A stretch of DNA of 51,741 nt from Conidiobolus incongruus B7586 (Eukaryota): assembly GCA_000697335.1 (NCBI GenBank), contig JNEM01009149.1:1-51741 (forward strand), given 5' to 3'. Below, in pieces: positions 5,216 to 46,135 of this stretch. The number at the start of each line of letters is the position of its first letter. Positions within the stretch are counted from its first letter, which is position 1. The notes beneath the pieces were generated by a model, which ran no database searches, had not been told where the DNA came from, and saw only the letters and a program-made list of their open reading frames with translations. The position numbers and the translations under genes are program-made.

Positions 5216-5360
5216 GATTTGATGTGAGCAATATGGAATTAAGGAGCGAATAGAGAATACTAATAATCAAAGTTGAGAACACAATTAAAATAATCCACAC
5301 TAAAGGGTAATTTAGTTTAATCGAAATTCTTCAATTCAAATTGTTCAGGGAATTAGGGGG

Positions 5361-10119: not shown

Positions 10120-11409
<1,290 letters not shown>

Positions 11410-12093
11410 ATTAGTTATAAATTTTCAGTTTATAAATTGTAATAAAAATTAGAAATCGTGTTGAAATTGTTGGTTAAAATAAATTATTAATAAAAAATAT
11501 TGGTCATTTAATTTAATAATTCAGTTGATATAAAAATTTTAACAGTTAAATTTCAATATCATTCAGCGATATTTATAGTTATCATACTTATCAAAAATTA
11601 TGGGATTTAATTCTTTCATTTTATCTGTTAACCTGACGAATTTAAGAGACGAGTTTGATAAATATGTTATTAATTACTAAAAAATGATAATACTCTTTTC
11701 AATATCGAAATTAGAAGTATTCTTCTTCAATATCTGACTTGATATATTTATATATTATTTTTATCACTTGTTATTATCAATTAAATGATTTAATTTTATT
11801 GTCATTTAAAAAAAATTTTAAATTGCTCATCAAAAAGTTATCGTATTAATTATATGCAATAATTATTATTTTCAATATATTATCACAATATCTTATCTTT
11901 TTTGGTTGATCTCTTATAATTAAATGTTATTTTGATAAAATGATTATATTAAATTGCAACAAAATAAAAATTTCCCTAATCAACTCTCCAATTATAAAAA
12001 AATCCCATATAAATTCAATTAACAAGTCATAATCATAAAAACTATCCATTCAACTCAATTATATTCACCACAATAATAATATGAATAAAAACA

Positions 12094-14535
12094 ATGGAAC
12101 ATATATTAGACGATGATAAATTTTCAACAGTTGAATTTATTAATCAATTATTACCTAATCCAAGTTCACTTTCTAATTCTAATGGTCAAATTATTCAGAA
12201 GATTTTAGCCAATTTAAAATATCAGATTGATAATGTAGATTTAGAACTTCAAGCTTTAGTTAGAAACCAAATCCAGATGAATGTCCCACGTTACGATGTG
12301 AGTAATTTAGCTCCAAATTTAGCAGATTTGGTTGATAGGGTGGGTCAAGTACAGAAGCAAGCTATTCAAAGTGAATCTACGGTTGGTGAGATTTCGAAAG
12401 ATATAAGAGCATTGGACTACGCTAAAAGGAATTTGACTACATGTATCACATTTTCAAGACGACTTCAAATGGTGACGACTGCTGTGGAACAGCTGAAACA
12501 CCACGCCGCTAACAAACAGTACCGCGAGGCGGGCCAGATGATGCAGGCTGTCGAGCAGTTATTCAGTCATTTTGCTGCTTTTAATAAGCTTAAAGTTATT
12601 AAAGAGTTGGAGAAAACTATTAAAACTCTCAAGGAGTCACTTATCAAAGAGATTATATCTCAATTTCAATCAAGTTTTAATGGACTGGGCAAGTTAGCAT
12701 ACCCTTCAGAACCTTTGACAGAGGCCAATTCTATTTTGGATCTTATTGATACTAACGCTCGACGCAATTTAATTGTGTGGTACACTGATCTCCAATTACA
12801 AGATTACTTGAGCGTATTCAGAGGTGATGACGAAGTAGGCGCTTTAGATAATACATCCAGGAGATTTGCTTGGCTTAAGCGCTGGTTGCAGATGTTCGAT
12901 GCTGAGCATCAGTCCATATTCCCTGAGGAATGGCATGTGGATTACGCGCTCGCGAAAAAGTTTTGCGAAATTACACATCAAGACTTGACTACAGTTTTGG
13001 AAAAGACAGCGAGTCAGAATGTTAATATGGTAATTCAATCAATGCAGTTGACTGTTGCTTTCGAACACCAGTTGGATAAGAGATATTCCCACTTGCTTCA
13101 GAGTAAGAGCGACAGTTTTGTCAATACGATTTCACACTGTTTTATACCATACTTAAAACTATATTTGAAGAAAGAAGATGGTACATTAAAGGAGATGATC
13201 GATCAATACAAAACACAACCATTGGTCGCTGATCAAGAGTCATCCATTCCAGTATTAGGATCTAGTACTCAATTATTTTTATTCTATTCCGAAACTCTTA
13301 CAACCTTGTCCAAAGCTACGACACACCAACCACTTCTGGAATTGGCACAGTTGCTTGCTAAATGGTTGCAGATCTATTGCGACTCCATCCTGCTTAACAA
13401 ATTACCTAATGTTGAAGCTAATAACTACAACTTGACTAATATGGATTCTGATATCAAGTCAATCTGCCTCATACTGAACACGAGTCAATACTGTCTAGAG
13501 ACTTTAAAATCATTCCTTCAGCGCTTGGACCAGTTAATCCACCCCAGTCTGAAAGGCCAACTCGAATTCAAACAACAAGAAAATTCGTTCGAACGCGTCA
13601 CACAACAAGCCATCATCAAATTAATGAAGCTCACGGACAAGTCCGTCGAACCTATCTTCGCCACTATACTCCAGCAGAATTGGGACAAACCTCAAACTGA
13701 CATTCCTATCATTCAAGATTTGAAATTAGAATTAATTAAAACTGTAGAGATTGTCAAACAATCCATCTATCGCGACAAATATTTGCACCAATATCTCACT
13801 GATTACCCTGAGTAAGTTTTCAAGTATAATACATTTAATTTTAATCTAAAATTGCATTTTTAGATATTTATTCAACAGATATTTGGAGACATGCTTCAAA
13901 ATTAAAAGAATTATCACAGTAAATGTCCCTATTTTTAAGAAATTTGGTGAAGATTTGAAGCAGCATTATTTGGACTTTATCGAGGAGATGAATATCTTTA
14001 AAGATATTGAATTGTAATTCTATGTTAAAATACATTCTTTTTAATACTAATATATATGAATTTTAGATTCCGATATAAAGTAGAAGATCACTATACCAAA
14101 GAATGGGAATCATTCTACAAACTATTAGAAATTGACATCCCAGAAAATCTCAATCCTGATTCCGAAGAAACTTCCCAACTGGTCCAAGAGTGGCTCGACA
14201 CCTTCCTCCTATGGACGCCGGACGGATCCATTAGCAAATTAATCAAATTCATGCAGATCAAAGGCATAGCCAAATCGGATCAAGCTCCATTCCGTGAACA
14301 GTTGGCCCATCGAGTCCCTTCCAAATCCAGCAGTCTGTCCATTGCTATCGCTGCACCGACTGGTGACTCCAACAGGGACTTGAACGGCACTGGACCTCCA
14401 AAATTAATATCACCACTCTCGGGAACTTCTTTATCTCAATCCAAACTCAACCAAAATTTTTCCAATTTTTTCAAAGGAATGAACTTACTCAGGGATCATT
14501 CTAGTCAAACCTCTAACCAAAGTGATAAAAGTTAA
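12094..14535 (+). CDS. VPS53: GARP complex subunit Vps53, 3 exons: 12094-13811, 13864-14013, 14067-14535 (778 aa)
   Basis: Vps53_N motifs: FINQLLPNPSSL, VGEISKDIRALDYAKRNLT, GALDNTSRRFAWLKRWL, IFPEEWHV, ILNTSQYC; GT-AG introns of 52 and 53 nt (second has TACTAAT branch site) join the 573-aa and 159-aa ORFs in frame. Confidence 0.93.
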
Positions 14536-17405: not shown

Positions 17406-18777
17406 AATATATTAAATTTTTGTTTGGAAATACTTATTTATGTGAATTTTTTAATAATTATGATATAAATCAAATCACTGTAATATTTTAAAATATTATA
17501 AAATCAGGTTCTTAAACAAAATTGAAGTTATAATTTTCTAGAAATTAATTAATAGAAAGGCATGAAACTAATAGCATATAATTGAAATATATCTTAAATT
17601 ATTATGAAAATTTATTAAATATCATTATTGATTATTGGTGAATTAGATGAGAGAAAATATAATTAAAATTAAAATATATCAATTATCAAATAATTCAAAA
17701 ATTATGAATATTATTATAAATATTAGTTAATTAGTAGTATAGCCTCAGAGTGTCTATCATCCGTTAATGCTTAAGTTACGTATAATATTCCTTCTATTCA
17801 TAACATTCAATCAAATGGCAACTTGTGAATATTGATGAGGATTAGAATTTGTACCATTAAAATGGTATTGAAAATATTATAGAAAAAATTTAATTCTGAT
17901 TAAAATAAATTATTAATCAATCATATTATTCACTATTATTATGGATCAAATAAATTAATCTATATGATTTTAAAAATAATTTTTTGTAAAGAATTGAAAA
18001 TGTTGATAAAAGGGCAATTATACTAGGTAAGGTAAAGCGAATATAAACTAATATTTTTCTAATATAAAATAAAAAATACAAAATCACTGAACCTAAAACA
18101 TTATTTATTATGATCAGGGCATTCATTCTCAATAATACTATTAATAGTACAGATTAAATAGAATTCTAATGATTAACCCTACCTTCCCGAAAGCAAGCTT
18201 AATGTAATGTAATATTTGTTATATATCAAATTTTGTCAAAATTCTCTAATCAATTATAAAATATTAATCAAAACAACTAAATTTTTCAAATTTTATAGTA
18301 AATATTTAATACTGGTATTTTAATCATTAAATAAAAGATTCCAGGTAATTGACTTAATTGTATATTTATTGGTATGTTCTTTATCCTTTAAATCTAATAG
18401 TAAAATTAAAATTAAAATTAAGTATAACAATCAGTTATTTCGAAAAATCACCCATAATTTTATGTTATTTTTTCACCTTTAATTAATGAATAGATTGTTT
18501 ATCAATTTCTGATATAAATTAGATAAGAGGATTGAATGAGGTGGTATATAGCAAATTGATAATATCTATCAGTCATGCCTTCACCGTAATGCCCAATAAG
18601 GAAATATTATGACACCAAATCCAAACAAACCCCATTTGATAAAATGGCACAAAAGTTTTGAGGTGACCTAGTTGTTTATTATTACCTAATTATTTTTTCT
18701 TATTACAAAAAATTATTATTAGCGATTACTTTTCTTAGTCTTAAGATATTTTTTATTTTTTAAGAAGTGATCTACAC

Positions 18778-20483
18778 ATGAATAATAATGAGAGTTCTGT
18801 GTCGTGTGATATCTGGAGAATTCGAAAGAAGAGATGTGATAGGGAGTTGCCGAAATGTCAAAGCTGTATTAAAAGGGGCGTCGAGTGTAATTATCCCAAT
18901 ATTTCACGTAAAAGAAACATCAATTATACCGTATTTGCTTCTTCTCAAATTAGGCTAAATTTTAAAACTAATAGCAAGGAGCAGCAAGTAGAAAATAGCA
19001 GTAAAAGAGCATTGAGAGGACGTCCTGGAAATTTCATACATAAATATGGGGTACAAATCATGCTTTTTCAACCACTTCCAAATCCAAATTCAGCTCTAAT
19101 TGATAATTTAGCACAAAACTTTATTATTCCAATTGTCTCACAACAGACTCAAAAATTCGAAACACATCTTTTACTCATGCTAACAACGCAGATTGTCCAG
19201 TATGATAAGTTTATTATACCACAAATAGATTCTTTTGTGCAACAATTACAAGTTGGAACTTTTGGCGGATTATTGAAGACAACCTTCTGCATAAATCAAG
19301 AATGGATCAATGGATTGCTTCAACCTGATTTCCAATCTCAACTAATTCTTAACTATTTCACAAGTTTGCACATCATTTATCCTTACTTGTCAAAATATCG
19401 GTTTTTTACAAATATTGATTTTATGTCTCCAAATTTGACAAGTGTAATGTTGTATGTTAGCTACACAACATATCTCAAGCAACATCAGGAATTGCGTAAA
19501 TATCTCAAGCATTCTGCTCTGATCCAACTCAAGAAAAATATGTTTAATGTGATCCTTCAAGTTTGTCGAGCGCTATGTATTTTCAGCTATTTTATGCTAT
19601 TAGAGGGCTTGAGCAAGCAATCATTAGCCTATTTCAATCAAGCTTGTCTCATGGCAACTTCTTTGGGAATCTATAGAGGAATGCCTAATATAAGTTCAGA
19701 AATTCGACATGAAAGACACTGCCTTCAAACCTAGTTAAAAACTCAAGATTGTCATTTGTCAGCTAAAATAAGTTCATAACTATATTTCCTATTTATGGCA
19801 CCCTGCACTAAATCTTTGGATCCAATATATCAAATGGATCCACATCAAACACTACGCGCCGAGTTAGCTTGTACTATGCGCGATTGCTTTAATCTCTATT
19901 GGGCTCCGGGAGCTAGTCTAATGGTCGCATACTCTTTGATGGTATCTACCAAATCAAAATAGTTTCACTGCCAGGACTTTAAGGAAAAGTGCCAGTTTTT
20001 TGGCGAATCATGGACCTATTTCTTTCGAAATTGCTTGATCCGATTTTTAATAATATCAGACCGATACAAGGGTAAAGAAGAGATGCAAATGATCAACAGA
20101 TTGGTGTGGACGCATTGTGGAATTTATTGCCATCTCAGTCTAGTGACATACTCACAACTCCCACCCGCTGTTGATCCAGAAACAAGTGAACTGAATCCTA
20201 GCATCATGAAAGCAATCCAAGCAGCAACCGCCACCTACAGCATCTCTGACCAAAATGCTGAAAATTTTGTGCAAATGTTCTATCACTATCTATCTCAAAT
20301 ATCCTTCTTCTATATCGATATCGCAATGCATTTTGAATCTCACTATCCCACTCAATCCGATGTAATTTCTAAACTGCAACAAGCATAAACTATAATATTT
20401 TTCAAAAAAAGTATCATCAGAAAAATGATACTGTGGGAGTATTGGTATCTATGGTGAACTATTTTAAAATTTAATTGAAATAA
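18778..20483 (+). pseudogene. Zn2Cys6 TF paralog 1, pseudogene
   Basis: Second zinc-ligand Cys is Trp (TGG 18814-16); in-frame stops at 19732, 19777, 19960, 20386 and a frameshift near 20400; homology continues to KKYH..DT..V..SM.NYFKI*LK* ending 20483. Confidence 0.88.
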
Positions 20484-22751
20484 ATATTATGATACAGGCC
20501 ATTATTTTGATAAAAGTTTTTATTTTCATTAATTTATATAGTTGATTTATTTGATATTTATTAATTATATCAAAAATATGATAGTCAATAAGAATACTTA
20601 GAACCGTTATTTTGATCACTATCAAATATTCAATTTTTGACTAGTACCTAAATTGTGATTTTATGTGCTTTTAAATAGTGGTAGTCTATATTATGAGTGT
20701 TTACATTAAGAACATTTAGTATTTTTAATGATATACACACCGAATTCATATAAGAATTATAAAATACTATGTAAAATCAATAAATCTTTGAATAAATAAA
20801 TTATACTAGTGTCACAAAAATTGTATTTTATTAAACTGACTAGAGGATATTCTTAATCATCGTTTTAGGTAAGTAATTAATGATATAAAGCTAAATTTAT
20901 TTATAAAAAATTGAGTATGTTTAATAAAGTAGCATTATAATAGAATATCATGTATAATTGCAAAATATAATATATTATAATGAATATTTCAACATATGAA
21001 CAATTAATTTTATTCAAAATAAGGCTATTTATCATATTCAAAATACATATTAAATGAAATATTTGAAATTGAAGAAAATTATTCTAGTATCCATTCAAAT
21101 AATTATATTTGAAAATGTATCTAATAGAAAAATATAAGTCAGTATTTGATTTCAAACAATTCAGAGTTATCGTTTGGTTAATTTATTCTTATACCACTTA
21201 ACATTCTATAGATATTAGGTTCAAATCATTATTGGTATTCAACAAAGAAAGGTATATTAATCAGAATATATTACATTTTAGATACTAATTGAACATTTAA
21301 TCGATTATTAAAATTAGAATGTAATCAACTTTTAAACATAATTTTAGTATATATCTTTCTAATTGATTGTATTTAAAAAAGCGGTATACAATAATTGATA
21401 TTGAATAATATTATCAAGATAAGGATATATACAGTTTGTCATTAATAATATAATATCAGTAATTAATTACAAAATAACTACAAAATATATCTTAAGGATG
21501 ATTATTCAGATTTTATATGTTTAACGAAAAATAATAACTATCAATAAAGTATGATTTGATTTATTGAATTCATATATTGATACATTCTTTTCATCCTTTC
21601 AAGGGATTAGTTTTGCACTTTAAACATATGTTTTATTATTCCGCAATGAAAATTTTATAATATTCATTTTATAAAGAAATAAATATTTAGATTAATAAAA
21701 ACAACTTATATAATTTATATATATTACTATAGCAAAATATTCACAAGCAAGAGCTAATTTTCTTTAATCATAATTTAAACCCAATTTTATTATACTCAAA
21801 TTTGAGGTACCATTACTACTTTATAGACTGAAATATATTAATTATCCATTCAACAGATATCACAGTGTAATGAGTAAGAAAAAAATGAAATAATTATTAT
21901 TTGCATATATTTTTTGGAAATAAATAATATATCAAATAATATTACAATTTTTTTAAAGATTATGGTATGAATTTTTGATACTTAATGAAAATATACTCAA
22001 ATACACTGTAATTAGTATCAAAGATAATAGTTATTTATCAATACCTTTAGTAAGCAATAAATTATATCCATAGATAAATATTATTGTATAAATTGAAAAA
22101 TTTGCTTGAAATTTATTTGAAATGAAATATCTGATATTTTCAAACTTATATAAATTTTATCAAAATCTGATGTAAATTAGATATCAATATGTTTTAATAA
22201 GTAGAGATTGAATCTTCCAAATGCATGATTAAAAATTAAATTTTACAGGTTAGATATTTCTAGAACTAATTTTAATTATAATAATTGATATGAAACACAT
22301 TTATGGATTTCAAAAATGTCACTTTGAAAGAAACATAAACATTGGGTAGAGTGAAAATATTAGTTCAATATTCAAGATATATAAATGTTATAATATTAAA
22401 AAATTACTTAAATTTATATATTATTGAAAATATCGAAATTTATAAAATTCAGAATTAGAGAAATCTAATAATAATGGATTATAGTTTGTTTGCTTCATTT
22501 ATTTCATTAATGAAATTCTAAATTTTTATAATTCACTTAAAAAATTATTAATAACAACATATCAAATATTAGTAATCATTTAAAAAATGGAAATTCTAAA
22601 TAATTCAATTTATCAAAGCGTTATATTTATTCGATGAAAATATTTATTTTGCTTAAGCATTAAAGGACATTTTTTTATTTAAGGATGATCAATCGCTTAT
22701 AGATGGAAATTGTAACCGGTTAATATAAAATTATGAAAGTAATAACGCAAG

Positions 22752-24461
22752 ATGGTACACGTGACTGAGAGCTTGGTTTCTTGTGATTCATGTCGAAAAA
22801 GGAGGATAAGATGTGGAAGAGAGTTACCAAGGTGTAGGGGCTGTATTAAAAAATGTATAATCTGCAATTATCCAAGCCAACCTCACAAAAGAAGCACAGG
22901 AGAGACAGTTTTTTCATCCTGCGAAAATAAATTAAAATTGAACAAGTTAGAATTAAATAATACCAATCAATCCACATTGCTATTGCATTCAGTGAGCTCT
23001 AATTATAAATTTAAAATTAAACTTTATCAGCCAATGACTGGACTTAGTCCCATATCTACCGACTCGATTGCACATAATTCAGTATCTATGATACAACTGA
23101 AGCAACCTCATAAATTTGAAACTCACCTTTTACTCTTATTGACAACACAAATTGTCAATTATGACAAACAAGTGATTCCCGAAATCGATGCTTTTGTAAA
23201 TAAATTACAATTAGGAATTTTCGGTGGAGTGACCAAAGTGAACTTCCACATGAATCAGGAATGGATCCAAGAGCTATTTCATCCAGACTTTCAAATCAAT
23301 CAAATTAATAACTATTTCGCAACCTTTCACTTGGGCATACCATATCTTTCAAAATATCATTTCTTTACTAACTTGGAAAAAGTTTCATCTTTGCTCAAAA
23401 GTGTAATCATATATATTGGATATGCTAGCTCTCGTAAGCAACATCCAGAATTATTGAAATATTTGAAGCATTGTGCTCTAATCCAGTTAAAGAAAAATAT
23501 GTTCACCATTAATCTTGATATATGTCAAGCTTTATATATTTTCAGTTACTTTATGTTCCTTCAAGGTTTGGTCAAACAATCTTTAACGTATTTCCATCAA
23601 GCTTATCTAATGTCCAGTGCTTTGGGGATCTTTTTAAAAATGCCCAACTTGAGCACAGATCAACGAAGTCAAAGATATTTTCTTGGAACTACTTCCTATT
23701 CTCACGATTCACACTTGGCAGCTACTTTGCGTATGCAACCTTACTTTTTATTTTTAAATCCGACATGGCTAACTTTGGATCCAGTGTATCAGATCAGTCC
23801 ATATTCCGAAGATTCTTGCGAAATGATACATGCAGAGTGCATATGCATCAATAGGATGTGCTTTGTACTCTTTTGGACACCTTCAACCAATCTAATGATA
23901 ATATACTCGCTCATTGCTGCCAAACAACCCACTACTCTTGATCTTAATACCACAGTTCATAGAATTCGAATTCTTGAATATCTATTCGATTTATGCCTAA
24001 TTAAATCTTTAGAAGTCTACTTGGAATTATCAAAAAAATACAAACAAGAAAATGAGCTCAATATTATCAAAAAATCAGTATGGATAATTTGTGGCCTATA
24101 TTATCATTTGAAAATTCTGTTATACTCTCAAGTTTCCCCGACTGTGGATCCAAATACTGGAAATCTCAATTCAGACACACTAAAAGCAATGAAAGCAGCT
24201 ACAGCTATATATAATATTACAATGTGCGATCCAGAGTGTTGTATTCCGATGTTTTATCATCATCTATCACAGATTTCGATGCTTTATATCAAAACAATTC
24301 TAGTATTAGACAATTATCCTCGCATAAAACTCCAACTCACTCAAAAATTAAGAGATATTTATAAATTATTTATATATTTTAAAAAAAAGTATCATTTTTC
24401 AGAAGATACTTTGGAAGTGATCGAATCAATGGCAAATTATTTCAAAATACATATCAAATAA
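22752..24461 (+). CDS. Zn(II)2Cys6 transcription factor with fungal middle-homology region, paralog 2 (569 aa, intronless)
   Basis: CDSCRKRRIRCGRELPRCRGCIKKCIICNYP = Cx2Cx6Cx6Cx2Cx6C; YFxxFHxxxPYLSK...AYLMSSALGI MHR-like segment. Confidence 0.93.
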   Translation: MVHVTESLVSCDSCRKRRIRCGRELPRCRGCIKKCIICNYPSQPHKRSTGETVFSSCENKLKLNKLELNNTNQSTLLLHSVSSNYKFKIKLYQPMTGLSPISTDSIAHNSVSMIQLKQPHKFETHLLLLLTTQIVNYDKQVIPEIDAFVNKLQLGIFGGVTKVNFHMNQEWIQELFHPDFQINQINNYFATFHLGIPYLSKYHFFTNLEKVSSLLKSVIIYIGYASSRKQHPELLKYLKHCALIQLKKNMFTINLDICQALYIFSYFMFLQGLVKQSLTYFHQAYLMSSALGIFLKMPNLSTDQRSQRYFLGTTSYSHDSHLAATLRMQPYFLFLNPTWLTLDPVYQISPYSEDSCEMIHAECICINRMCFVLFWTPSTNLMIIYSLIAAKQPTTLDLNTTVHRIRILEYLFDLCLIKSLEVYLELSKKYKQENELNIIKKSVWIICGLYYHLKILLYSQVSPTVDPNTGNLNSDTLKAMKAATAIYNITMCDPECCIPMFYHHLSQISMLYIKTILVLDNYPRIKLQLTQKLRDIYKLFIYFKKKYHFSEDTLEVIESMANYFKIHIK

Positions 24462-25585: not shown

Positions 25586-27313
25586 CTATTTAATAGGTTT
25601 TAATTGAATTTTGAAATGACTAGCCATTGTTTCGATTACATCCAAAGTGTCTTCAGAGAAGTGGTATTTGGCTTTAAATTGAATAAATAAAATATAGATA
25701 TCTTGTAACTTTTTGATAAGCCCTAATTGAATATGAGGATATTGCTTGATTTCCAGTATTATTTTGATATAAAATAATGATATTTGGAATAGGTAATGAT
25801 AAAACATTGTAACACAACTCTCTGGATTACTTGATGTGATATTATAAATTCCTGTAGCAGCTTTAATTGCTTTCAATGTGGGCCAATTTAGTTGTTGTGT
25901 TGTTGGATTGATAGTTGAATGCAGCTGAGAGGATAAAATTAAATTCAAAGTATAATACATTCCACAATGTGACCACACTGATGCCTTGATAATATCTTTC
26001 TCGGGTTTTTTAATATAAACTTGTGATAGATTCAAATATCGTTTGAGTGTATTGATAAAAGAATAATTAAATAGCTGATTGAGATATTGGATTTTCTCAA
26101 TGAACAACTCCTTATCCAACTCAGTTGATTTTTTTGATAACATTAGTGAATAAATCACCATCAAATTGGTTGAAGGAGTCCAATATCGGTTAAAACAGTC
26201 TCGAGTTATGCATGTACATTCGGCCAATAATTTTTCGTTAGAATCTGAAGAGTAAGGATTAATTTGATAATTTGGGTCTAATGATTTAAGATGGGGTCCT
26301 GTATATTGAAAATAAGGCTGGATTCTTAATGTGGCAGCCAAATGAGAATCTTGAGAATACGAAGAAACTCGGAGAGACTGCCGGTCTTGTTGAATTTCTG
26401 GATGGATATTAGGGATATCTGTGTGAATTCCCAAAGCAGAGGACATGAGGCATGCTTGATTGAAATAAGATAGCGATTGTTTTGCTAGACCTTGAAATAA
26501 CATTGAGTAGCTAAAAATATACAAAGCTTGGCATGTACTAACACTAACTGTGAACATATTTTTCTTGACCTGGATAAGGGCGCAATGTTTTAAATACTTC
26601 AACAGTTCAGGATACTGCTTAGGGTGATTAGTGTAACCTACATATAATATTACGCTCATTAAAACAGGTGAAATTTTTTCAATATTAGAGAAAAAACGGT
26701 ATTTTGAAAAATATGGATGTACTAAGTGAAATCTACTGAAAAAGCTATTGATTAACATATTTTGAAAATCATGACGAAACAATTCTTTGATCCATTCTTG
26801 ATCCATGTGAAAGATAAGTTTAGCTTGTCCTCCGAAAATTCCCGCTTGTAATTTAGAGATAAACGGTTCAATTTTGGGGATGATATCCTGATCTATTTCA
26901 ATAATTTGAGTCGTTAGTTTAAGAATAAGATGTGTTTCAAATCTTTTATATTCATTTCGAGGAGTCAGAATACAAAATTGTGGATATATATCCTGGCTCA
27001 AAGTTGACTTGTATGATGAAATAGGTTGGTATAAAATAAGATTTCCTTCATTTTTGAGCGATTGCCTTTGGTATCTGTTTTTCAATAAGTTATTTTTTCC
27101 AACCTGTAAACGTTTACCACCAATTCGAAAATATAATTTGTGTAGAGTAGAGGAAAAAACAGTATTCTTGATGTGACGTTTATGAGATGTATTCGGGTAA
27201 ATGCAATTTACATTCTTTTTAATGCATCCTAAGCATTTGGGTAACTCTCTCCCACATCTTTTTTTGCTAATCCTACAAGAATCGCAAGAAACTGAGTTAT
27301 TTTGTATTTCCAT
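25586..27313 (-). CDS. Zn(II)2Cys6 transcription factor, paralog 3 (575 aa, intronless; only paralog on minus strand)
   Basis: CDSCRISKKRCGRELPKCLGCIKKNVNCIYP; colinear similarity to paralogs 2 and 5; TATATAAA-like box at 27391-27398 upstream. Confidence 0.93.
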   Translation of the reverse strand: MEIQNNSVSCDSCRISKKRCGRELPKCLGCIKKNVNCIYPNTSHKRHIKNTVFSSTLHKLYFRIGGKRLQVGKNNLLKNRYQRQSLKNEGNLILYQPISSYKSTLSQDIYPQFCILTPRNEYKRFETHLILKLTTQIIEIDQDIIPKIEPFISKLQAGIFGGQAKLIFHMDQEWIKELFRHDFQNMLINSFFSRFHLVHPYFSKYRFFSNIEKISPVLMSVILYVGYTNHPKQYPELLKYLKHCALIQVKKNMFTVSVSTCQALYIFSYSMLFQGLAKQSLSYFNQACLMSSALGIHTDIPNIHPEIQQDRQSLRVSSYSQDSHLAATLRIQPYFQYTGPHLKSLDPNYQINPYSSDSNEKLLAECTCITRDCFNRYWTPSTNLMVIYSLMLSKKSTELDKELFIEKIQYLNQLFNYSFINTLKRYLNLSQVYIKKPEKDIIKASVWSHCGMYYTLNLILSSQLHSTINPTTQQLNWPTLKAIKAATGIYNITSSNPESCVTMFYHYLFQISLFYIKIILEIKQYPHIQLGLIKKLQDIYILFIQFKAKYHFSEDTLDVIETMASHFKIQLKPIK

Positions 27314-29442
27314 TATAGCAAATGCAATAAATTGGATTCATCTCATGTAAAAATTATCAAAAAATGTTATCGTTCAACTCCAATATTGGGTTTATATATA
27401 CAAATCAAATTGAATTTCATTTATCAATATTCACCTCAAAGCTATTTTAGAAAATCAAAGGTATTAGGCTTTTTATATTGAATGTTATCTAGTTCAATAA
27501 GGTAGGTTTATTTTGTGAATTATAATTTTCATTTCAGTTTTAAAAATTAAACCAAATAAGTATTAATAAAGTTTGTAGAAAACAAAATATACAATTCATA
27601 TTAAAAATAAATTCAACATATAATTAATACTCTTTAAAAACTGGAGATATAATGGGGTTCCTTTTTAAAATAAGTACATAAAACTTATCAATTGCATTAT
27701 CTATTTAAATATGCATTCAATTGATCTATAGATATTGCTTGATTTAGGTATTTGAACGAAGCTTTTACCTCAATAAAATATAAATCGTTAATGAACAAGA
27801 GTAAACTAATTAATTTATTTGGAAATAAAATCTCCTGCCTTTAATAAGTATTCAATCAAAAATACTCAATATTATTTACAGTTCAGGAGAGGATATTTAA
27901 ATTTAATAGGATAGCTCATAGTGAATAATTTTTATTAGTTAATCAAGTCAAATTAAACTATATTGATATAATATAAATAACGAGTATATAAGAGTAAAAA
28001 GGTCTTAAAATAGATTCTTGGTCAAATACACAACAATTGCAATATTGGTTTCATTTAACTAAATATTATATGAAATCTTCTAAATTATGATGAATATAAT
28101 ATGTAATAATTAGGTAGCCAAGTTCTCGTTTTGGTTTATATATCAATTCTCATCTGTTATTCGACATTTGCAGGGCCCTATTGTATTTTACTGGCTTCAG
28201 CAAACCAAGGTGTATTTATATTAATCAAATCTGTGGAAAATGTTAATTTTTTAATATTAAACATCCTCCTTTTCTACAACCCCGACTTCATAATAACACT
28301 TTCAAATCGATTGTTGCCTGATGATTATGCATTAGCAACAATACGAACTTTGTCAGCTAATATCTTTTGATATAATGGTTAATTGTATTTTCATTAGAAT
28401 ATATTCCAAAATTAATTTCATTACACATATTGTTATATGTAACAAAATTATAAAAATTTTTCATAATTTTATATTCTTCATTTTCATTCAATTCAATTTT
28501 TTGATTGATTATATTAATCATAATCTATATGTTTTTAAAACACCATTATTTATTAAAAATCATATACATATCAAATTAAATAAGACAGTAAGAATTAATT
28601 TCTAAATTTTGATTTTATTATAACACAATTCTTCAAAATGAAAATATAAAAAACATTTATTATAATTTGGACAATAATGCAATATAATAATTATTTCTCA
28701 TTAAGTTATAAAAGTTACAATTTAATCAAAATGAATGTCAGTATTGTAATAAAATTCATTCCAATTAATTGATTTCCAATATAAATTAAAAATATTAATA
28801 AAAAGGAATAAACTAAACAATTTCTTAAATAAGTATATCCGATATATTATGATTAATATTTTGAATTTTTCATTGTGATTAAAAATGAGTGTATTATATC
28901 AAATAATTTCTCCATCTATTTTTAATTTAATATATAATATCAATCGAATAAATTTTCAATATTAATATATGGCCATTTTCCAAAATATCTTAGATAATTT
29001 TATAAATTTATTTTCTGCATTATTTAATTTGTCAATATAGATAAATTTAATAATTATATAACCATATTTATAGATAAATAATATAAGTTATTCGGTCCAA
29101 ATATTAAATTTATGTTTGTGTAATCATTAGCATATATCTCATTTTCTATTAAAATCCATTTTAATTATCAAATTAGAATAAACGATAGATATTACTTTGT
29201 ATCTTAAATTTTTATTGCACATAATCAAATTCATATATTATTATAAAAAATGGACCTAATTATATTATAAAAATGATCAAGTATTCATTCTATGTTTAAC
29301 CAAAATTATTCCAAGTCTATCAATAACATTAGGATTATAGAATGCTTATCAGATTTAATCAAGTGATATATGCAATGTCTGATATATATTTGGCTTTGAT
29401 TTTTAATTACGTTAATTTGATTTAAATTAGGGATTATGAAAA

Positions 29443-38638: not shown

Positions 38639-39894
38639 ATCAAATAGATATATTAATAGTTATATTAAAACTGATCACCAGTTTATTAAACTTAACATAG
38701 GATATTCATACGAATCTAAAGATAATAGCATAAAAATATATTATTAATAGTGTAATTATTAAATGAATGGATGCATTAAATCAAGAATTCAAGAATTAAT
38801 CAAGTTTGAATTAAATTTAATTGAATTAGATAAATAAGGTATAAAAAAATAAATATTAAATGTGTCTCAATTGATATTTAGAGAAAGTAACTTAAATTTT
38901 GATTTAAACCGAATAAGTTGATAAGTAAGTGAATATAAATGTTTTTAATATTATAATCTTTATCTTGATTGATTAAAAAATACTATGATAAATAAATCAA
39001 GGATGCTACTAAATTTATTTTACTAAAAAATGATAAAAGTATTTAGCTTAAAGATCAAAAACCATGATTACAGAATCCAGTACAAAATTATATAAAAAAG
39101 AATATATAATATTAGATGATATAGATACTAATAGCATATTATTATTTCCAACCACTTCAAAAAAATAAATAATGATAGTATATAAATTAGATATTTAAAT
39201 ACAAATATTATTGTTTTATGTAAGAGGAATAATATAAAAACGTTTATTTAATAAAATAATATTTAAATACAAACAGCTAAAATTATCAAAACTTAATTTA
39301 TTTAAAATAACTGAACTTTAATACCATATTTACCAGCTATAAATCCCTGTTGATATTATTGTTTTGATGATTTATAGAATTTGAACCAAGGAAAGAGATT
39401 TAATGATACTTCTCTATGTAAAAAATAGGGGTGCAATTTTGAAGATATATTCTAAAAAATTATGTGAACGTGTTAATTAATAATATTATAGAATTCTGTT
39501 ATTTGAAAGTGAGGAAGTTATTAATGATCAAAATGAAATAATTTTTTTCTAGCTATTATTTTGTTAAATTAAATTTCAAAATTGGTGTACTTTTATAATT
39601 ACGTTTTATTATGAATAGATGTATTGTCTCTATATAAAGATACATATAATAACCCATATATACCATAGTATTGGGTAAAATCTATCATTATATTGTATTA
39701 AGAAGCATAGTAAAATTATCCGATATCGCATTATCATTAGTGAAACTTAAAAAATTTGAAGCCCATGTTAGCATAATCGTTGAGGCGGTTCGTTTAAAAC
39801 CATAATTAAAGTTTTATAACTTTTAAATACATGGAGTTCATCATCAATTTTTGGTCTTGTAAAAATTATTCCTATCTGCTGGATTGATAACAAT

Positions 39895-41598
39895 ATGGAA
39901 GAGAGGAAAGAAAGTTCCGTTTCTTGTGATACTTGCAGATTGAGAAAAATTAGATGTGGTAGGGAGTTTCCAAAATGTAAATATTGTACCAAAAAATCTG
40001 TCTTTTGTAATTATCCTAATCATTCTCATAAGAGGTCGAGTCAAGTTACGGAGTTTTCGTCGTCGCAAAATGTTTTGAATTTCAAAAGGAGTGTTGAGAA
40101 ATTAACGAAGAAAAATAATATAGTATTGAGGAGATCTAGAAGGCCACATTCTTATTATGATATTCAGATAATTTTTTACCAACCCAGCCCCAATCCAAGT
40201 AAAACTTCACCCTCCGATAATTCACACGATCTGATAAGCGCTCTAAGTAAAAGAAAGTTCCAACAATTCGAAACCCATCTGATATATATGTTAACGACGC
40301 AAATCATCCAAAACAACGTTGAAATAATACCCGAAATTGAAGCATTCGTAAGCAAATTACAGTTAGGGATATTCGGAGGGGCAATTAAGCTGCATATTCA
40401 TTTGAGCCAGGAATGGATCCGAGAGCTTTTTCATCCCGATTTTCAAATGAAACTCATCCAATGCTACTTTGAAAATTTTCACGCGGTTTATCCTTATTTT
40501 TCAAAATATAAATTTTACACCAATTGTGAAAAGATTTCTCCAGTGTTGAAGAGTGTAATAATGTACGTAGGATATACGAGTTATTCTAGGCAGCATCCCG
40601 AACTCTTGAAGTATTTGAAGCATTGTGCCATGATTCAGCTTAAGAAAAATATGTTTAATGTTAGTATTGATGTATGTCAATCTCTGTTTATTTTTAGTTA
40701 TCATATGCTATTTCAGGGATTGGCCAAACAATCGCTGGTTTATTTCAATCAAGCATGTTTGATGTCTTCCGCTTTGGGAATCCATATGACAATACCCAAT
40801 ATTAGCCCAGAGTTTGAAAACGAAAGACATTCACTTCGCGTCACATCACATGCTCAAGATACACACATAGCCGCAAATTTGGGCATTCAACCCTATTTCA
40901 TATTTCTAGATCCCCATCCTAAGCGTTTAGATCCAAAGTACCAAATTAATCCATATTCCAAAGATTCATACGAGCAAATCCGCGCAGAATGCACATGTCT
41001 AACACGAGATTGCTTCAATCAATATTGGACTCCTTCAACTAGCCTAATGATGGTATACTCACTAACAACATCTAAACAATCTGAAAATTTCAATCAAAAA
41101 ATCAAAATCCTCAACCAACTGTGCAACTATTCATTTATCAACACCCTCCGAAAGTACTTGCAACTCAGCACTCGACTAAAAACCCCTGAAGAGATAGACA
41201 TAGCAAAAAAATTTGTTTGGGCTCATTGCGGTATGTACTATACACTGACACTCATTTTATTCTCCCAACTCCCTCCCACAATTGACCCCTGCACACAACA
41301 ATTGGATATGGGCACTTTGAAAGCGATTCAGGCTGCTACCGCATTGTATAACATCACATATAGCGATCCTGAAAGTTGTGTAGTAATGTTCTATCATTAC
41401 GTATCACAAATTTCTCTATTCTATATTAAAACTATACTTCATCTCGAACAATATCCTGAGATTCAAAAGGAGTTAAAAAAGAAGCTGAAGGATGTTTATC
41501 AATTATTTATTAGATTGCAGAAGAAGTACCATTTATCAGATGATACTTTGGAAGTGGTTGAAAGTTTAGCTAAATATTTTAAAATTGGATTAAAATAA
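39895..41598 (+). CDS. Zn(II)2Cys6 transcription factor, paralog 5 (567 aa, intronless)
   Basis: CDTCRLRKIRCGREFPKCKYCTKKSVFCNYP; colinear similarity to paralogs 2 and 3. Confidence 0.93.
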   Translation: MEERKESSVSCDTCRLRKIRCGREFPKCKYCTKKSVFCNYPNHSHKRSSQVTEFSSSQNVLNFKRSVEKLTKKNNIVLRRSRRPHSYYDIQIIFYQPSPNPSKTSPSDNSHDLISALSKRKFQQFETHLIYMLTTQIIQNNVEIIPEIEAFVSKLQLGIFGGAIKLHIHLSQEWIRELFHPDFQMKLIQCYFENFHAVYPYFSKYKFYTNCEKISPVLKSVIMYVGYTSYSRQHPELLKYLKHCAMIQLKKNMFNVSIDVCQSLFIFSYHMLFQGLAKQSLVYFNQACLMSSALGIHMTIPNISPEFENERHSLRVTSHAQDTHIAANLGIQPYFIFLDPHPKRLDPKYQINPYSKDSYEQIRAECTCLTRDCFNQYWTPSTSLMMVYSLTTSKQSENFNQKIKILNQLCNYSFINTLRKYLQLSTRLKTPEEIDIAKKFVWAHCGMYYTLTLILFSQLPPTIDPCTQQLDMGTLKAIQAATALYNITYSDPESCVVMFYHYVSQISLFYIKTILHLEQYPEIQKELKKKLKDVYQLFIRLQKKYHLSDDTLEVVESLAKYFKIGLK

Positions 41599-43009: not shown

Positions 43010-46000
43010 TTATTTCGACAAATTGCGAATCATAGCGTTCAGGTCTAGATTTAAGAGCCTACGAACCTCATTAATAGACTGCATCGATTCGTCGCCATGA
43101 TTTTTGTCAGGATGCTTCAATGTTCGGTTTTGGATAGGGTCTTCAGAGGTTGGAAAGTTGAGTGTTTTGAATTGCAACGGTGGTGTTTCGGTGGGTTGGG
43201 GAGGTGGTGGGAATTGAGGCATGAGTTTGTCGCGACGGAATTGGGGATCAAAATTGTTCTGAGTTGACTTGAGGATTAAGTTAAGTTTTTTGAACATTAG
43301 ATCGTGATAATGTGATTGATTCACTTCCTTTCTTACGACCGGGACTTCGGTAGCGATATTTTGATTATTAATCACTTCTGAAGGCTTTGGTGCTTGACAT
43401 GATTTTTTAGCTTCTTCAATGAAATCTAATACATTTCCAACATGGATTCGAGGGTCGAAGTCCGTGGGAAACCTCGTACAATCTAACCTAGATTTATACT
43501 TATAGCACTAAACAAACCATTGGTAAAATTCAAAAAAAAGAAAAATTATACAAATTACCCAATCAATCCAATAACAGCTCACCAACTCAGTACCTGGGAA
43601 CTCCTTCACAATTTTTCTGGAGGTAAACTCTGGCTTGCAACTAGATCGAAGATTTTGGACGATATGGGTAGTTTTTTCGAAGGGTTTGAAGCATAGTTCA
43701 CCACCCATCTCCGAAATCTTCTGCTTGAAATCTCGTAAGGTGGCGTCATCGAGATTATCTAAGTAGATTACGTATCCTTGCATAATGTGGGTGATATCAG
43801 TGCGATGGAATGGTTGATCCGCGATTGAAGCTGAAAAAACTGGCTGCGATTTGGGTATTGTATCTGCCTTTGTAACTGGAATTGGGGTAGATTCAGCAAT
43901 TTGAGGTGGCTTCGGAGTTAGAAAGTGAGTAGTGGGCCGTATATCAGATGACTTCATTTGAAGCTCAACATTTGTCAAACTCAAATGATTCTTACCGGTT
44001 CTGATAATTTTATAAATTTCGTCCACATCGATGATTGGAATTCCCTTACGTTCGGCTCTCATGGTCTTTTTGCTTTTAAGTTTGGCATTGGCATTAACTA
44101 GATGCGTACATTTAGAATGAAACACTTCTGAAGTGTGTGCACCTAATCTCTTTAGCACTTTCATGAGGTGACTTCTTTCGAAGAAATGTACATTGGTAAA
44201 GACAAATACAAACATGTCAAATCCTAATTGAAAATATATTAGAATGATAATAAAGTTATATATTCGACTTACCTGGGATAGGCTGACAAATATCCAAAGG
44301 TTGGAATAATATATTGTCAGAAGTATTATAAAACATTTGGTCCTAAAAATCAGTCAATATTTGATAAATATAATTGTCAATTGTTATTACATTGATGCAT
44401 CTTTCAATCCAAAATTCCGTAGCGTAGAAATTACTCTTCTTGGGATTTACAGCAACACTTCCGTCGTATGGCAAGATACACATCGTTGGAGCTTTGGGTA
44501 TTGGTTCTGATATTACCACACCGCCACAATATTGGATCGATTCCTCAATTCTTCTGCTCTAAAATCAAATGATTAGATTTCAATCTTTTGGCCACTTATA
44601 ATCATTACATCTTCCTCAGAAAAACCATAAATCAAAAATTTAAAATATTTGAAAATGCCTAAACTCTCAGGAGTTGAAGTTTCCTGCTCGCTAGAATGGA
44701 TTTCCGTTACAGCTGTGGAGGTGCTGGATGTAAATATCATCTTTGACTCATATTTGACCATTGGTGTATTTTGATTCTGTGTCCAAGCACCAGTTTCTGA
44801 ATCTACCAAATATTTGGTTTCGTCAATCAACTTTTGATGATAGTGACAGTCTTCTATCCAGTTGGATTGCACGCATTTCACCTGGGATTGATCAATACTT
44901 GAGAGTAGTTTGAGATCTTCAGGAGTGAAGCCAGACCTCAACACGATGAAATGGGTAATATGTCGAATGGAGTCTTTGTCATGAATGTATCCGTGTCCTG
45001 TTTCGATCATGTGTTTGATATGTTTTTGAAGATATAATATATCTTCGGGTAAATAGATATGACAACCTGAGAAATATTTGGTAGGATCACCTATACAACA
45101 TGGATTAATTTTGATTTTTCAAATTTGGAATAGGTATATTACCTTGACCGTCATAAGAATTAGGAGCACCGTATGGAAATTTGGTCAAAGACTGAAACAC
45201 TAGTCATGAGCAAAGTAAGCATATAATAAATGGTGCAATTATTAGCATTTACCCAAAGATTTTTCACACTCCAAAATCCAATTCAAATTGACAACTCTAA
45301 ACTTGTCATTTTTCATAACCGATATTGAATCAAATGAAAACACATATCTATTGTAAAAATTGGAATTAAGGAATAATAACAAATCATAAACTTATAAATG
45401 ATATAGAGTGTTATATATGAAAAAGGATATAGTTAAAGCAATAATATTCGTTTCGGGATTGATTTTTGCATCTAATTTACCACCTAAATTTTTTATAATT
45501 TGTTTAAATTTTAAAAATTCTAATCAAATAGTTAGATGAAATATGTTGTATAATTTAATGTATTTTAATATATATTTACCAGTATCTTTATGCGAATCAA
45601 ATCCCAATATGATGAAATTTAAATTGTGAAATGGTAAGAGCTTAAAATTTGATAAAAGCTAAAATGTTATTAATTATTCAATAATAATAATTATAAAATT
45701 TGATATATATACTTGTTCCAAATTCACATTATTGGTGTTGCTATCTTCCAGCTTAGTCAGAAAATTAGGATGTAATATAGTGATATTTTTATCGACAGCT
45801 TTCTAAGCTCTTATCGTTAAATATTATTTAAATAATTTGGGGATAGATGTTTACCCTATAACTTGCAGTATTCACCGCCTTGCAAATATAATAATTCACC
45901 TTATTATCATCGATTTGATCCGTTTCTTGGCCTCCAAATCTTATTATTTTTTGTTTTAATGAAATCTATTAATAAAAAATTAATATAAAACCCTTTTATA

Positions 46001-46135
46001 AAAAAAAGAAAATACATAGTGTTGAATGTCTTTGAAATCATCTCTAATTATTAAAAATTTGAGACCTTGTAAAGGTGCTCTCCGCCCTAATTCAGCTCGC
46101 TGAACTTGGGTTGAAAAAAATCTTCCAGATTGCAT
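43010..46135 (-). CDS. TOPBP1: Six-BRCT checkpoint/replication scaffold, TOPBP1/Dpb11/Rad4(Cut5)-like; 12 exons: 46135-46016, 45965-45855, 45802-45713, 45658-45580, 45519-45431, 45352-45253, 45199-45143, 45090-44609, 44558-44391, 44342-44273, 44223-43559, 43507-43010 (842 aa)
   Basis: Manual splicing gives one open frame with BRCT hallmarks: IIRFGG, IKNLGG..VVNLNWILEC, FSGCHIYL..ITHFIV..VQSNWIEDC, QYCGG..ATEFWIERC, LKRLGA..CTHLV, ISEMGG..TTHIV..VSCYWIDWC..RL..FP; ten GT-AG introns plus one AT-AC intron. Orthology (vs Rtt107/Brc1) inferred from domain spacing. Confidence 0.8.
45353..45430 (-). other. U12-type (minor spliceosome) AT-AC intron, 78 nt, phase 0
   Basis: 5' site ATATCCTTTT (45430-45421), branch TTCCTTAAT (45373-45365), 3' end TTTTTAC (ends 45353); removal joins ..IIALT|NRYVFSF.. 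in frame and removes in-frame TAA 45394-45392. Confidence 0.92.

What the first reader, a model, noticed from the sequence alone, without database searches (positions are those of the whole stretch)
45353..45430. U12-type AT-AC minor intron gating a DNA-damage checkpoint gene
Seen: perfect minor-class 5' site ATATCCTT, branch TTCCTTAAT with the branch A ~13-14 nt from a terminal AC, inside BRCT2. Retention hits TAA at 45394-92. Nearby GT donors (in GGT GGT AAA) joined to the nearby AG give the wrong phase and a stop, so AT-AC splicing is the only solution I found. Known: such introns need U11/U12/U4atac/U6atac, which are absent from Dikarya model fungi but kept in some early-diverging fungi, and minor introns can be rate-limiting. 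Inference: this fungus has a working minor spliceosome that may throttle TOPBP1-like expression. GT-AG-only annotation will mis-model this gene.
Basis: partly seen in the sequence, partly recalled or inferred. Interest (0 to 1): 0.85.

Follow-up and report, generated by a model that had tools for sequence, protein, structure and literature searches.

The report
AT-AC minor intron in fungal Rad4/TopBP1
A 78-base stretch carrying the textbook signals of the rare "minor" class of introns interrupts a Rad4/Dpb11/TopBP1-type gene of a Conidiobolus-like fungus; it is likely a real minor intron, ordinary for early-diverging fungi, and nothing shows that it regulates the gene.

Summary
On the minus strand, 45430..45353 is a 78-nt, phase-0 stretch. 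It starts ATATCCTT, has TTCCTTAAT 13-14 nt before a terminal AC, and carries an in-frame TAA.

It lies in a 12-exon, 842-codon gene model whose other 10 introns are GT-AG, 48-60 nt long, and all end in TAG. Removing exactly these 78 nt gives a peptide that aligns without a gap to two Conidiobolus coronatus-type orthologs. It also aligns with no large gap or insertion at the junction to seven distant relatives; the two of them checked against solved structures are TopBP1-like.

They score much worse against the orthologs, 97 or less versus 161.

The motifs alone are weak evidence, about 0.12 chance matches expected per window. The case rests on frame and homology.

No RNA run was listed, no genome is held, and no snRNA lies in the window, so actual splicing and the minor spliceosome remain inferred. 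"Gating" of a checkpoint gene is speculation.

The closest named relative is C. coronatus. Minor introns are already documented in Zoopagomycota and other non-Dikarya fungi, and this scan has found the same kind in other fungi. Verdict: a new member of a known kind.

The parts
45353..45430 (-). Predicted U12-type AT-AC intron, 78 nt, phase 0 (intron 5 of 11)
   Evidence: Its removal gives the best match to the orthologs and an alignment without a gap.
45423..45430 (-). 5' splice site ATATCCTT (continues TT)
45365..45373 (-). Branch-site box TTCCTTAAT; candidate branch A at 45366 or 45367, 13 or 14 nt from the 3' end
45353..45354 (-). Terminal AC (3' splice site)
45392..45394 (-). In-frame TAA that ends the frame if the intron is retained
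   Evidence: retained translation; for coordinates.
45431..45519 (-). Exon 5 (89 nt), middle of BRCT2 including the GG motif; ends ...NIIALT
   Evidence: Translated alone, it matches Pfam BRCT profile positions 24-46 at a weak E of 0.043.
45253..45352 (-). Exon 6 (100 nt), end of BRCT2; begins NRYVFSF...
43010..46135 (-). Whole predicted gene, 842 codons plus a TAA stop. Twelve exons: 46135-46016, 45965-45855, 45802-45713, 45658-45580, 45519-45431, 45352-45253, 45199-45143, 45090-44609, 44558-44391, 44342-44273, 44223-43559, 43507-43010. Rad4/Dpb11/TopBP1-like multi-BRCT protein.
   Evidence: Hand-built model from the three-frame view, checked (single open frame). It aligns end to end with the 844-aa ortholog P0001. 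BRCT domains by Pfam; PDB matches to Rad4 and TopBP1.
45391..45480 (-). Rival 90-nt GT-AG intron (GTAAAT...ATAAG), in frame and open, but it removes the conserved BRCT segment

Best explanation
The 78 nt at 45430..45353 (minus strand) carry the full U12-type AT-AC signal set and are most likely a genuine minor-class intron, predicted to be removed exactly at AT...AC by a minor spliceosome that this Conidiobolus-like fungus would have kept.

Shown:
- The signals are present.
- The stretch sits between codons and contains an in-frame stop.
- Precise removal yields the BRCT2 sequence that the orthologs have.

Inferred:
- U11 and U6atac would read the ATATCCTT donor and U12 the TTCCTTAAT branch box, 13-14 nt from the AC, as in other eukaryotes.
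- The intron is a constitutive, probably neutral relic with no special regulatory role.
For: 1. Signals. The donor is ATATCCTT, the branch box is TTCCTTAAT, the A-to-end distance is 13-14 nt, and the stretch ends in AC. My recalled U12 consensus is RTATCCTT, TCCTTAAY and 10-15 nt. A loose scan of both strands found this as the only such combination in the window.

2. Gene context. A 12-exon model gives one open 842-codon frame. The other 10 introns are all GT-AG, 48-60 nt, and all 10 end in TAG. This one is 78 nt and lacks GT and AG.

3. Retention gives a stop after 12 codons.

4. Homology across the junction.
- P0001 (844 aa, unnamed JGI record) and P0122 (C. coronatus NRRL 28638 CONCODRAFT_72533, 865 aa) align across the junction with no gap.
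- Seven distant relatives also align there with the usual BRCT pattern, with only 2- or 3-column gaps beside the junction. Two of them were checked against the PDB and are clear TopBP1 relatives.

5. Scoring of ten hand-picked splice alternatives (chosen from the 60) against the P0001 segment: AT-AC 45430/45353 scores 161, the highest. The best GT-AG scores 97. The next best are other AT-started variants at 147, 144 and 137.

6. Lineage. The window's KRR1 exon is 86% identical to the C. coronatus cluster and 62% to Neoconidiobolus thromboides. Zoopagomycota are documented to have minor introns: Basidiobolus meristosporus has 249 (PMC10639083, passages).
Against: - There is no RNA evidence: no RNA run was listed for this DNA.
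- No genome is held, so the four minor snRNAs and the minor-specific proteins could not be sought. None lies in the window.
- The motif combination alone is expected 0.12 times per window by chance.
- Phase 0 is the least common phase for minor introns, about 22% on average (PMC10639083, passage).
- The two close orthologs are 91% identical to each other, so they count as one witness. Their gene models are predictions whose intron structure I could not see.
- Two scans of metagenome contigs for an orthologous locus found nothing, so conservation of the intron itself is untested.
- TOPBP1 does not appear in the 8 held supplementary files of a human/mouse minor-intron catalogue (PMC6717393), so there is no sign that this is an ancient conserved minor-intron position.
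Confidence: 0.85

Rival explanations
1. The productive mRNA is made by the major spliceosome using a GT-AG pair, 45480 (GTAAAT) or 45483 (GTGGTA) joined to the AG at 45392-45391. The ATATCCTT and TTCCTTAAT matches are then chance.
For: Both pairs are in frame and free of stops. GTAAAT is also the donor of introns 4 and 6 of this gene. The motif combination has a chance expectation of 0.12 per window.
Against: These pairs delete the segment from just after the GG motif to ...NIIALT, and they add 13 residues that no ortholog has. Scores are 97 and 90 against 161 for AT-AC versus P0001, and 104 and 97 against 166 versus P0122. The introns would be 90-93 nt and end in AAG, whereas all 10 GT-AG introns of the gene are 48-60 nt and end in TAG. 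Exon 5 translated alone matches the BRCT profile, weakly (E 0.043).
Confidence: 0.04
2. The intron is removed at AT...AC, but by the major spliceosome (a U2-type AT-AC intron), or the lineage has lost the minor spliceosome and the signals are a fossil.
For: Minor-spliceosome components could not be sought. U2-type AT-AC introns exist in other eukaryotes (recalled; 'Other AT-AC introns' are tabulated in PMC2846911).
Against: Both the donor and the branch box match the U12 consensus over 8 and 9 bases, with the right spacing. That degree of preservation is not expected without selection by U11/U12/U6atac pairing. This is an inference.
Confidence: 0.06
3. One reading: slow minor splicing or retention of this intron is used to throttle the amount of Rad4/TopBP1-like protein, for example under genotoxic stress.
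For: Retention gives a premature stop. In mammals, minor introns have been proposed as switches set by unstable U6atac (PMC3728624; abstract only, from the listing).
Against: Nothing in the sequence bears on rate or regulation. In Rhizophagus, minor-intron retention differed only modestly between cell types, in the direction opposite to the authors' hypothesis, and they favour neutral persistence (PMC10639083, passages). TOPBP1 is absent from the held supplements of a human/mouse minor-intron gene list.
Confidence: 0.07
4. The stretch is not spliced: the gene is a pseudogene or makes a truncated protein.
For: There is an in-frame TAA, and there is no RNA evidence.
Against: All other exons are open, and the model matches the ortholog from the first Met to near the C-terminus. 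BRCT domains downstream are intact by Pfam.
Confidence: 0.02

Closest known systems
U12-type (minor-class) AT-AC introns of non-Dikarya fungi: Basidiobolus meristosporus (249), Rhizophagus irregularis (205), Phycomyces and Rhizopus (PMC10639083 and PMC2846911, passages read)
   Same: Same donor and branch-box consensus, the same short branch-to-3' distance, and a single minor intron among many GT-AG introns in a housekeeping gene. The host phylum (Zoopagomycota) is the same as Basidiobolus, by nearest named relatives.
   Different: The host is a Conidiobolus-like species. I found no text on minor introns for that genus. C. coronatus appears only in a species list in the supplement of PMC10639083, and its result sits in a figure I could not read. 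The intron is in phase 0, the rarer phase. Splicing and the machinery were not shown here.
Rad4/Cut5 (S. pombe), Dpb11 (S. cerevisiae), TopBP1 (animals): BRCT-repeat scaffolds of replication initiation and the checkpoint
   Same: There are tandem BRCT pairs. The ortholog P0001 matches Rad4 BRCT3,4 (4bmd, E 2.7e-07) and TopBP1. Its N-terminal BRCT pair aligns with relatives, two of which were checked and match TopBP1 BRCT0-2 and Rad4 BRCT1,2.
   Different: There appear to be six BRCT-like units, against four in Rad4/Dpb11 (recalled) and nine in TopBP1 (recalled). The protein is very divergent: only 1 protein, the query itself, at E<=1e-30 among 1.84 billion representatives. Its function is untested.
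Earlier reports of this scan on other fungal DNA (Basidiobolus, Jimgerdemannia, Dimargaris, Rozella)
   Same: The same kind of finding: an AT-AC intron with textbook minor signals that public or GT-AG-only models tend to miss.
   Different: A different genome and gene. Some of those cases had transcript support; this one has none.

Membership tests
U12-type (minor-class) spliceosomal intron | 5' splice site matching RTATCCTT directly at the exon boundary (consensus recalled) | tested here: met
   ATATCCTT at 45430-45423, directly after the last codon of exon 5.
U12-type (minor-class) spliceosomal intron | Branch-site box TCCTTAAY (consensus recalled) | tested here: met
   TTCCTTAAT at 45373-45365.
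U12-type (minor-class) spliceosomal intron | Short branch-to-3'-splice-site distance, about 10-15 nt (recalled) | tested here: met
   13 or 14 nt from A 45366 or 45367 to C 45353.
U12-type (minor-class) spliceosomal intron | Exact removal restores the reading frame and the conserved protein | tested here: met
   Phase 0 and 78 nt. No gap against P0001 and P0122. Best score among the ten alternatives compared. Seven distant relatives agree.
U12-type (minor-class) spliceosomal intron | The junction is seen in RNA | not testable with these tools
U12-type (minor-class) spliceosomal intron | The genome encodes U11, U12, U4atac, U6atac and the minor-specific proteins | not testable with these tools
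   No genome is held for the window. No Rfam family reached gathering score in the window itself, which says nothing about the rest of the genome.
Rad4/Dpb11/TopBP1 family | N-terminal tandem BRCT pair homologous to Rad4 BRCT1,2 / TopBP1 BRCT1,2 | tested here: met
   Residues of P0001 from about 43-50 to about 171-229 match relatives. Two of those, P0244 and P0132, hit TopBP1 BRCT0-2 (E 1e-35 to 1e-42) and Rad4 4bmc. The window model aligns with them.
Rad4/Dpb11/TopBP1 family | Second tandem BRCT pair homologous to Rad4 BRCT3,4 | tested here: met
   P0001 residues 393-566 against 4bmd, E 2.7e-07. Window exon 11 hits the BRCT and PTCB-BRCT Pfam families.
Rad4/Dpb11/TopBP1 family | A role in replication initiation or checkpoint signalling | not tested
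   Inferred from family membership only.

The most novel reading that the evidence does not exclude
The Conidiobolus lineage keeps a working minor spliceosome, and this fast-evolving Rad4/TopBP1 scaffold gene is held under its control: regulated retention of intron 5, which brings in a premature stop, would set the dose of a replication/checkpoint hub in a fungus.
Probability: 0.06. Interest if true: 0.55.

Novelty: new member of a known kind. Interest (0 to 1): 0.25.

Why it matters
If confirmed, the intron adds a Conidiobolus-like species to the fungi that retain minor splicing. It also flags a gene that GT-AG-only pipelines would mis-model, because an in-frame GT-AG decoy lies 50 nt upstream.

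It does not open a new question. Minor introns in Zoopagomycota, Mucoromycota, Glomeromycotina and chytrids are already catalogued, and this scan has met the same thing in several other fungi.

The regulatory idea would matter only with expression data, and none exist here.

Tried and rejected
- Whole-genome access: none is held. No search for snRNAs or minor-specific proteins was therefore possible.
- RNA runs: none was listed. This is no evidence either way.
- Rfam on the window: no family reached its gathering score.
- Orthologous DNA: two metagenome-contig scans, with P0001 and with an exon-8 alignment, gave no relative. Conservation of the intron in relatives is untested.
- ATATCCTT as a marker: it fails on its own, 5 found against 6.07 expected.
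  - I read two of the other four sites. The one at 10902-10895 (-) lies inside an ordinary GT-AG intron of KRR1, within GTAAGATATCCTT. The one at 25256-25249 (-) has no branch box downstream.
  - None of the four passed the combined pattern.
- The 'only solution' claim is rejected.
- Earlier notes on this genome: none exist.
- Literature on Conidiobolus or Entomophthorales plus U12 or minor spliceosome: searches returned no relevant paper. The supplement of PMC10639083 names C. coronatus only in a species list. PMC11347168 does not include the genus in its held supplement.
- Human/mouse TOPBP1 as a minor-intron gene: it is not in the 8 held supplementary files of PMC6717393. Files may be cut, so this is weak.
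- Pseudogene reading: rejected because the frame is intact and the model matches the ortholog from the first Met to near the C-terminus.

Full report
**What is there.** On the minus strand the sequence reads ...GCT TTA ACT | ATATCCTTTT ... TTATTCCTTAATTCCAATTTTTAC | AAT AGA TAT ....
- The stretch 45430..45353 is 78 nt.
- It starts with ATATCCTT.
- It has TTCCTTAAT at 45373-45365, with its A residues 14 and 13 nt from the last base.
- It ends in AC.
- Read through, the frame continues for 12 codons and stops at TAA 45394-45392.

**Gene model.** I built the model on the minus strand from a three-frame view and checked it by script.
- It has twelve exons from ATG 46135 to TAA 43012-43010 and gives one open frame of 842 codons.
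- The other ten introns are all GT-AG, 48-60 nt long, and all ten end in TAG.
- The candidate is the only intron without GT and AG, and at 78 nt it is the longest.
- It lies in phase 0 between exon 5 (45519-45431) and exon 6 (45352-45253).

**What the gene is.**
- Pfam finds BRCT-family domains in exons 8 and 11, and weakly in exons 5 and 9.
- The only near relative found with exon 8 as query is P0001, an unnamed 844-aa JGI protein. It has the same length class and aligns from the first Met onward.
- P0001 is 91% identical to C. coronatus NRRL 28638 CONCODRAFT_72533 (P0122, 865 aa).
- P0001 matches S. pombe Rad4 BRCT3,4 (4bmd, E 2.7e-07) and TopBP1 structures.
- A library-wide phmmer search with P0001 found 398 proteins at E<=0.001, but only 1, the query itself, at E<=1e-30. 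The protein is therefore fast-evolving.
- I took the seven of the 150 listed hits whose best matched stretch lies in the N-terminal BRCT pair. Two of the seven were checked against the PDB and are unmistakable TopBP1 relatives: BRCT0-2 at E 1e-35 to 1e-42, and Rad4 BRCT1,2 4bmc.
- The junction aligns inside the second BRCT of that pair. Pfam BRCT_2 covers residues 133-195 of P0001 across the equivalent point.

'TopBP1-like' and 'inside BRCT2' therefore hold by homology. A checkpoint function is inferred from the family only.

**Is the AT-AC junction right?**
- Both C. coronatus-type orthologs align across it without any gap, and residues are conserved on both sides.
- The seven distant relatives show the usual BRCT pattern there: GG, then a T-x-hydrophobic strand, then a K-Y/F helix start. 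There is no large insertion or deletion at the junction.
- enumerated every AT/GT/GC donor and AC/AG acceptor pair between 45519 and 45253 that keeps the frame open. There were 60 pairs, and eight of them are GT-AG or GC-AG.
- These two alternatives cut out the conserved segment after the GG motif and add 13 residues that have no counterpart in the orthologs.
- I scored ten of the 60 pairs (seven of the eight GT/GC-AG pairs plus three AT-started ones) by global BLOSUM62 against the P0001 segment. AT-AC 45430/45353 scores 161, the best GT-AG pair 97, and the nearest competitors are other AT-started variants at 147, 144 and 137. The pattern is the same against P0122 (166 versus 104).
- The GT-AG decoys would also be 90-93 nt and end in AAG, unlike all ten real GT-AG introns of the gene.

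**Chance.**
- ATATCCTT alone is not enriched: 5 sites against 6.07 expected.
- I read two of the other four sites. One lies inside a normal GTAAGA...TTTTAG intron of the KRR1 gene, and one has no branch box downstream.
- The strict combined pattern (donor, branch box, 6-14 nt, AC or AG) is expected 0.12 times per window in 500 first-order Markov simulations. The simulation is mine and is not dinucleotide-exact.
- The window has exactly one such match.

The motifs alone would be weak evidence. What makes the case is that the single match coincides, to the base, with the one junction that restores frame and homology.

**Organism.**
- Four paralogous genes with a fungal Zn2Cys6 domain mark the window as fungal.
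- The KRR1 exon is 86% identical to a cluster that contains C. coronatus KXN65883.1, and 62% identical to Neoconidiobolus thromboides.
- GC content is 17-36% in 2-kb bins.

The source is a Conidiobolus-like member of Entomophthoromycotina. It is not C. coronatus itself: the BRCT protein shares 354 identical residues with P0001 over a 900-column alignment.

**What could not be shown.**
- No genome is held.
- No RNA run was listed.
- The window holds no Rfam family at gathering score.
- Two metagenome scans for an orthologous locus found nothing.

Actual splicing, the presence of U11/U12/U4atac/U6atac, and conservation of the intron in relatives therefore remain inferred.

**Mechanism.** The likely mechanism is inferred from established knowledge of minor splicing. 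U11 and then U6atac would pair with the ATATCCTT donor. U12 would pair with the branch box. The 3' end would be chosen by its short distance from the branch.

**Comparison with the literature.**
- Passages of PMC10639083 report 249 minor introns in Basidiobolus meristosporus (Zoopagomycota) and 205 in Rhizophagus irregularis. They also report minor introns and snRNAs in chytrids and Neocallimastigomycetes, and none in Ascomycota or Basidiomycota.
- PMC2846911 (passages) reports minor introns in Rhizopus and Phycomyces.
- C. coronatus was in the survey's species list (supplement). Its result is in a figure I could not read, so supplements or figures that I did not see may already cover this genus.
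- Searches for Conidiobolus or Entomophthor* together with U12 or minor spliceosome returned nothing relevant.
- This scan has already reported the same kind of intron in Basidiobolus, Jimgerdemannia, Dimargaris and Rozella.

**The 'gating' idea.** Nothing here speaks for it. In Rhizophagus, minor-intron retention differed only modestly between cell types, in the direction opposite to the authors' hypothesis, and they favour neutral persistence. TOPBP1 is not in the held supplements of a human/mouse minor-intron gene catalogue.

**Verdict.** This is a real-looking U12-type AT-AC intron (confidence 0.85) and a new member of a known kind. Its practical value is for annotation; interest is low to moderate.

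Noticed in passing
window 10855-10905 (-): An intron of the KRR1 gene starts GTAAGATATCCTT, so it contains the minor-type octamer by chance. It is otherwise an ordinary GT-AG intron with TACTAAT and TTTTAG. It is a useful warning that the octamer alone is not diagnostic in this AT-rich genome.
   Followed up: yes
window 18745-19734 (+), 22746-24461 (+), 25586-27337 (-), 39820-41598 (+): There are four paralogous long ORFs, each with a fungal Zn(2)Cys(6) cluster domain at the N-terminus and similar sequence throughout. This is a local family of transcription-factor genes.
   Followed up: partly
window 43010-46135 (-): All ten GT-AG introns of the gene are 48-60 nt long and end in TAG. This is a very uniform short-intron style.
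   Followed up: partly
window 43010-46135 (-): The protein seems to carry about six BRCT-like units (two N-terminal, one in exon 8, one across exons 8-10, two in exon 11) rather than the four I recall for Rad4/Dpb11. It is very divergent: 354 identical residues over a 900-column alignment with the C. coronatus-type ortholog, while KRR1 in the same window is 86% identical.
   Followed up: partly
window 45348-45349 (-): An AG lies 5 nt past the terminal AC (…AC AATAG). If it were used as the acceptor, the intron would be 83 nt and the frame would shift. It is a possible non-productive alternative 3' site.
   Followed up: no
window 12085-13815 (+) and 3575-5266 (-): There is a Vps53 N-terminal domain ORF (E 1.8e-89) and a 563-codon leucine-rich-repeat (LRR_6) ORF.
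   Followed up: no
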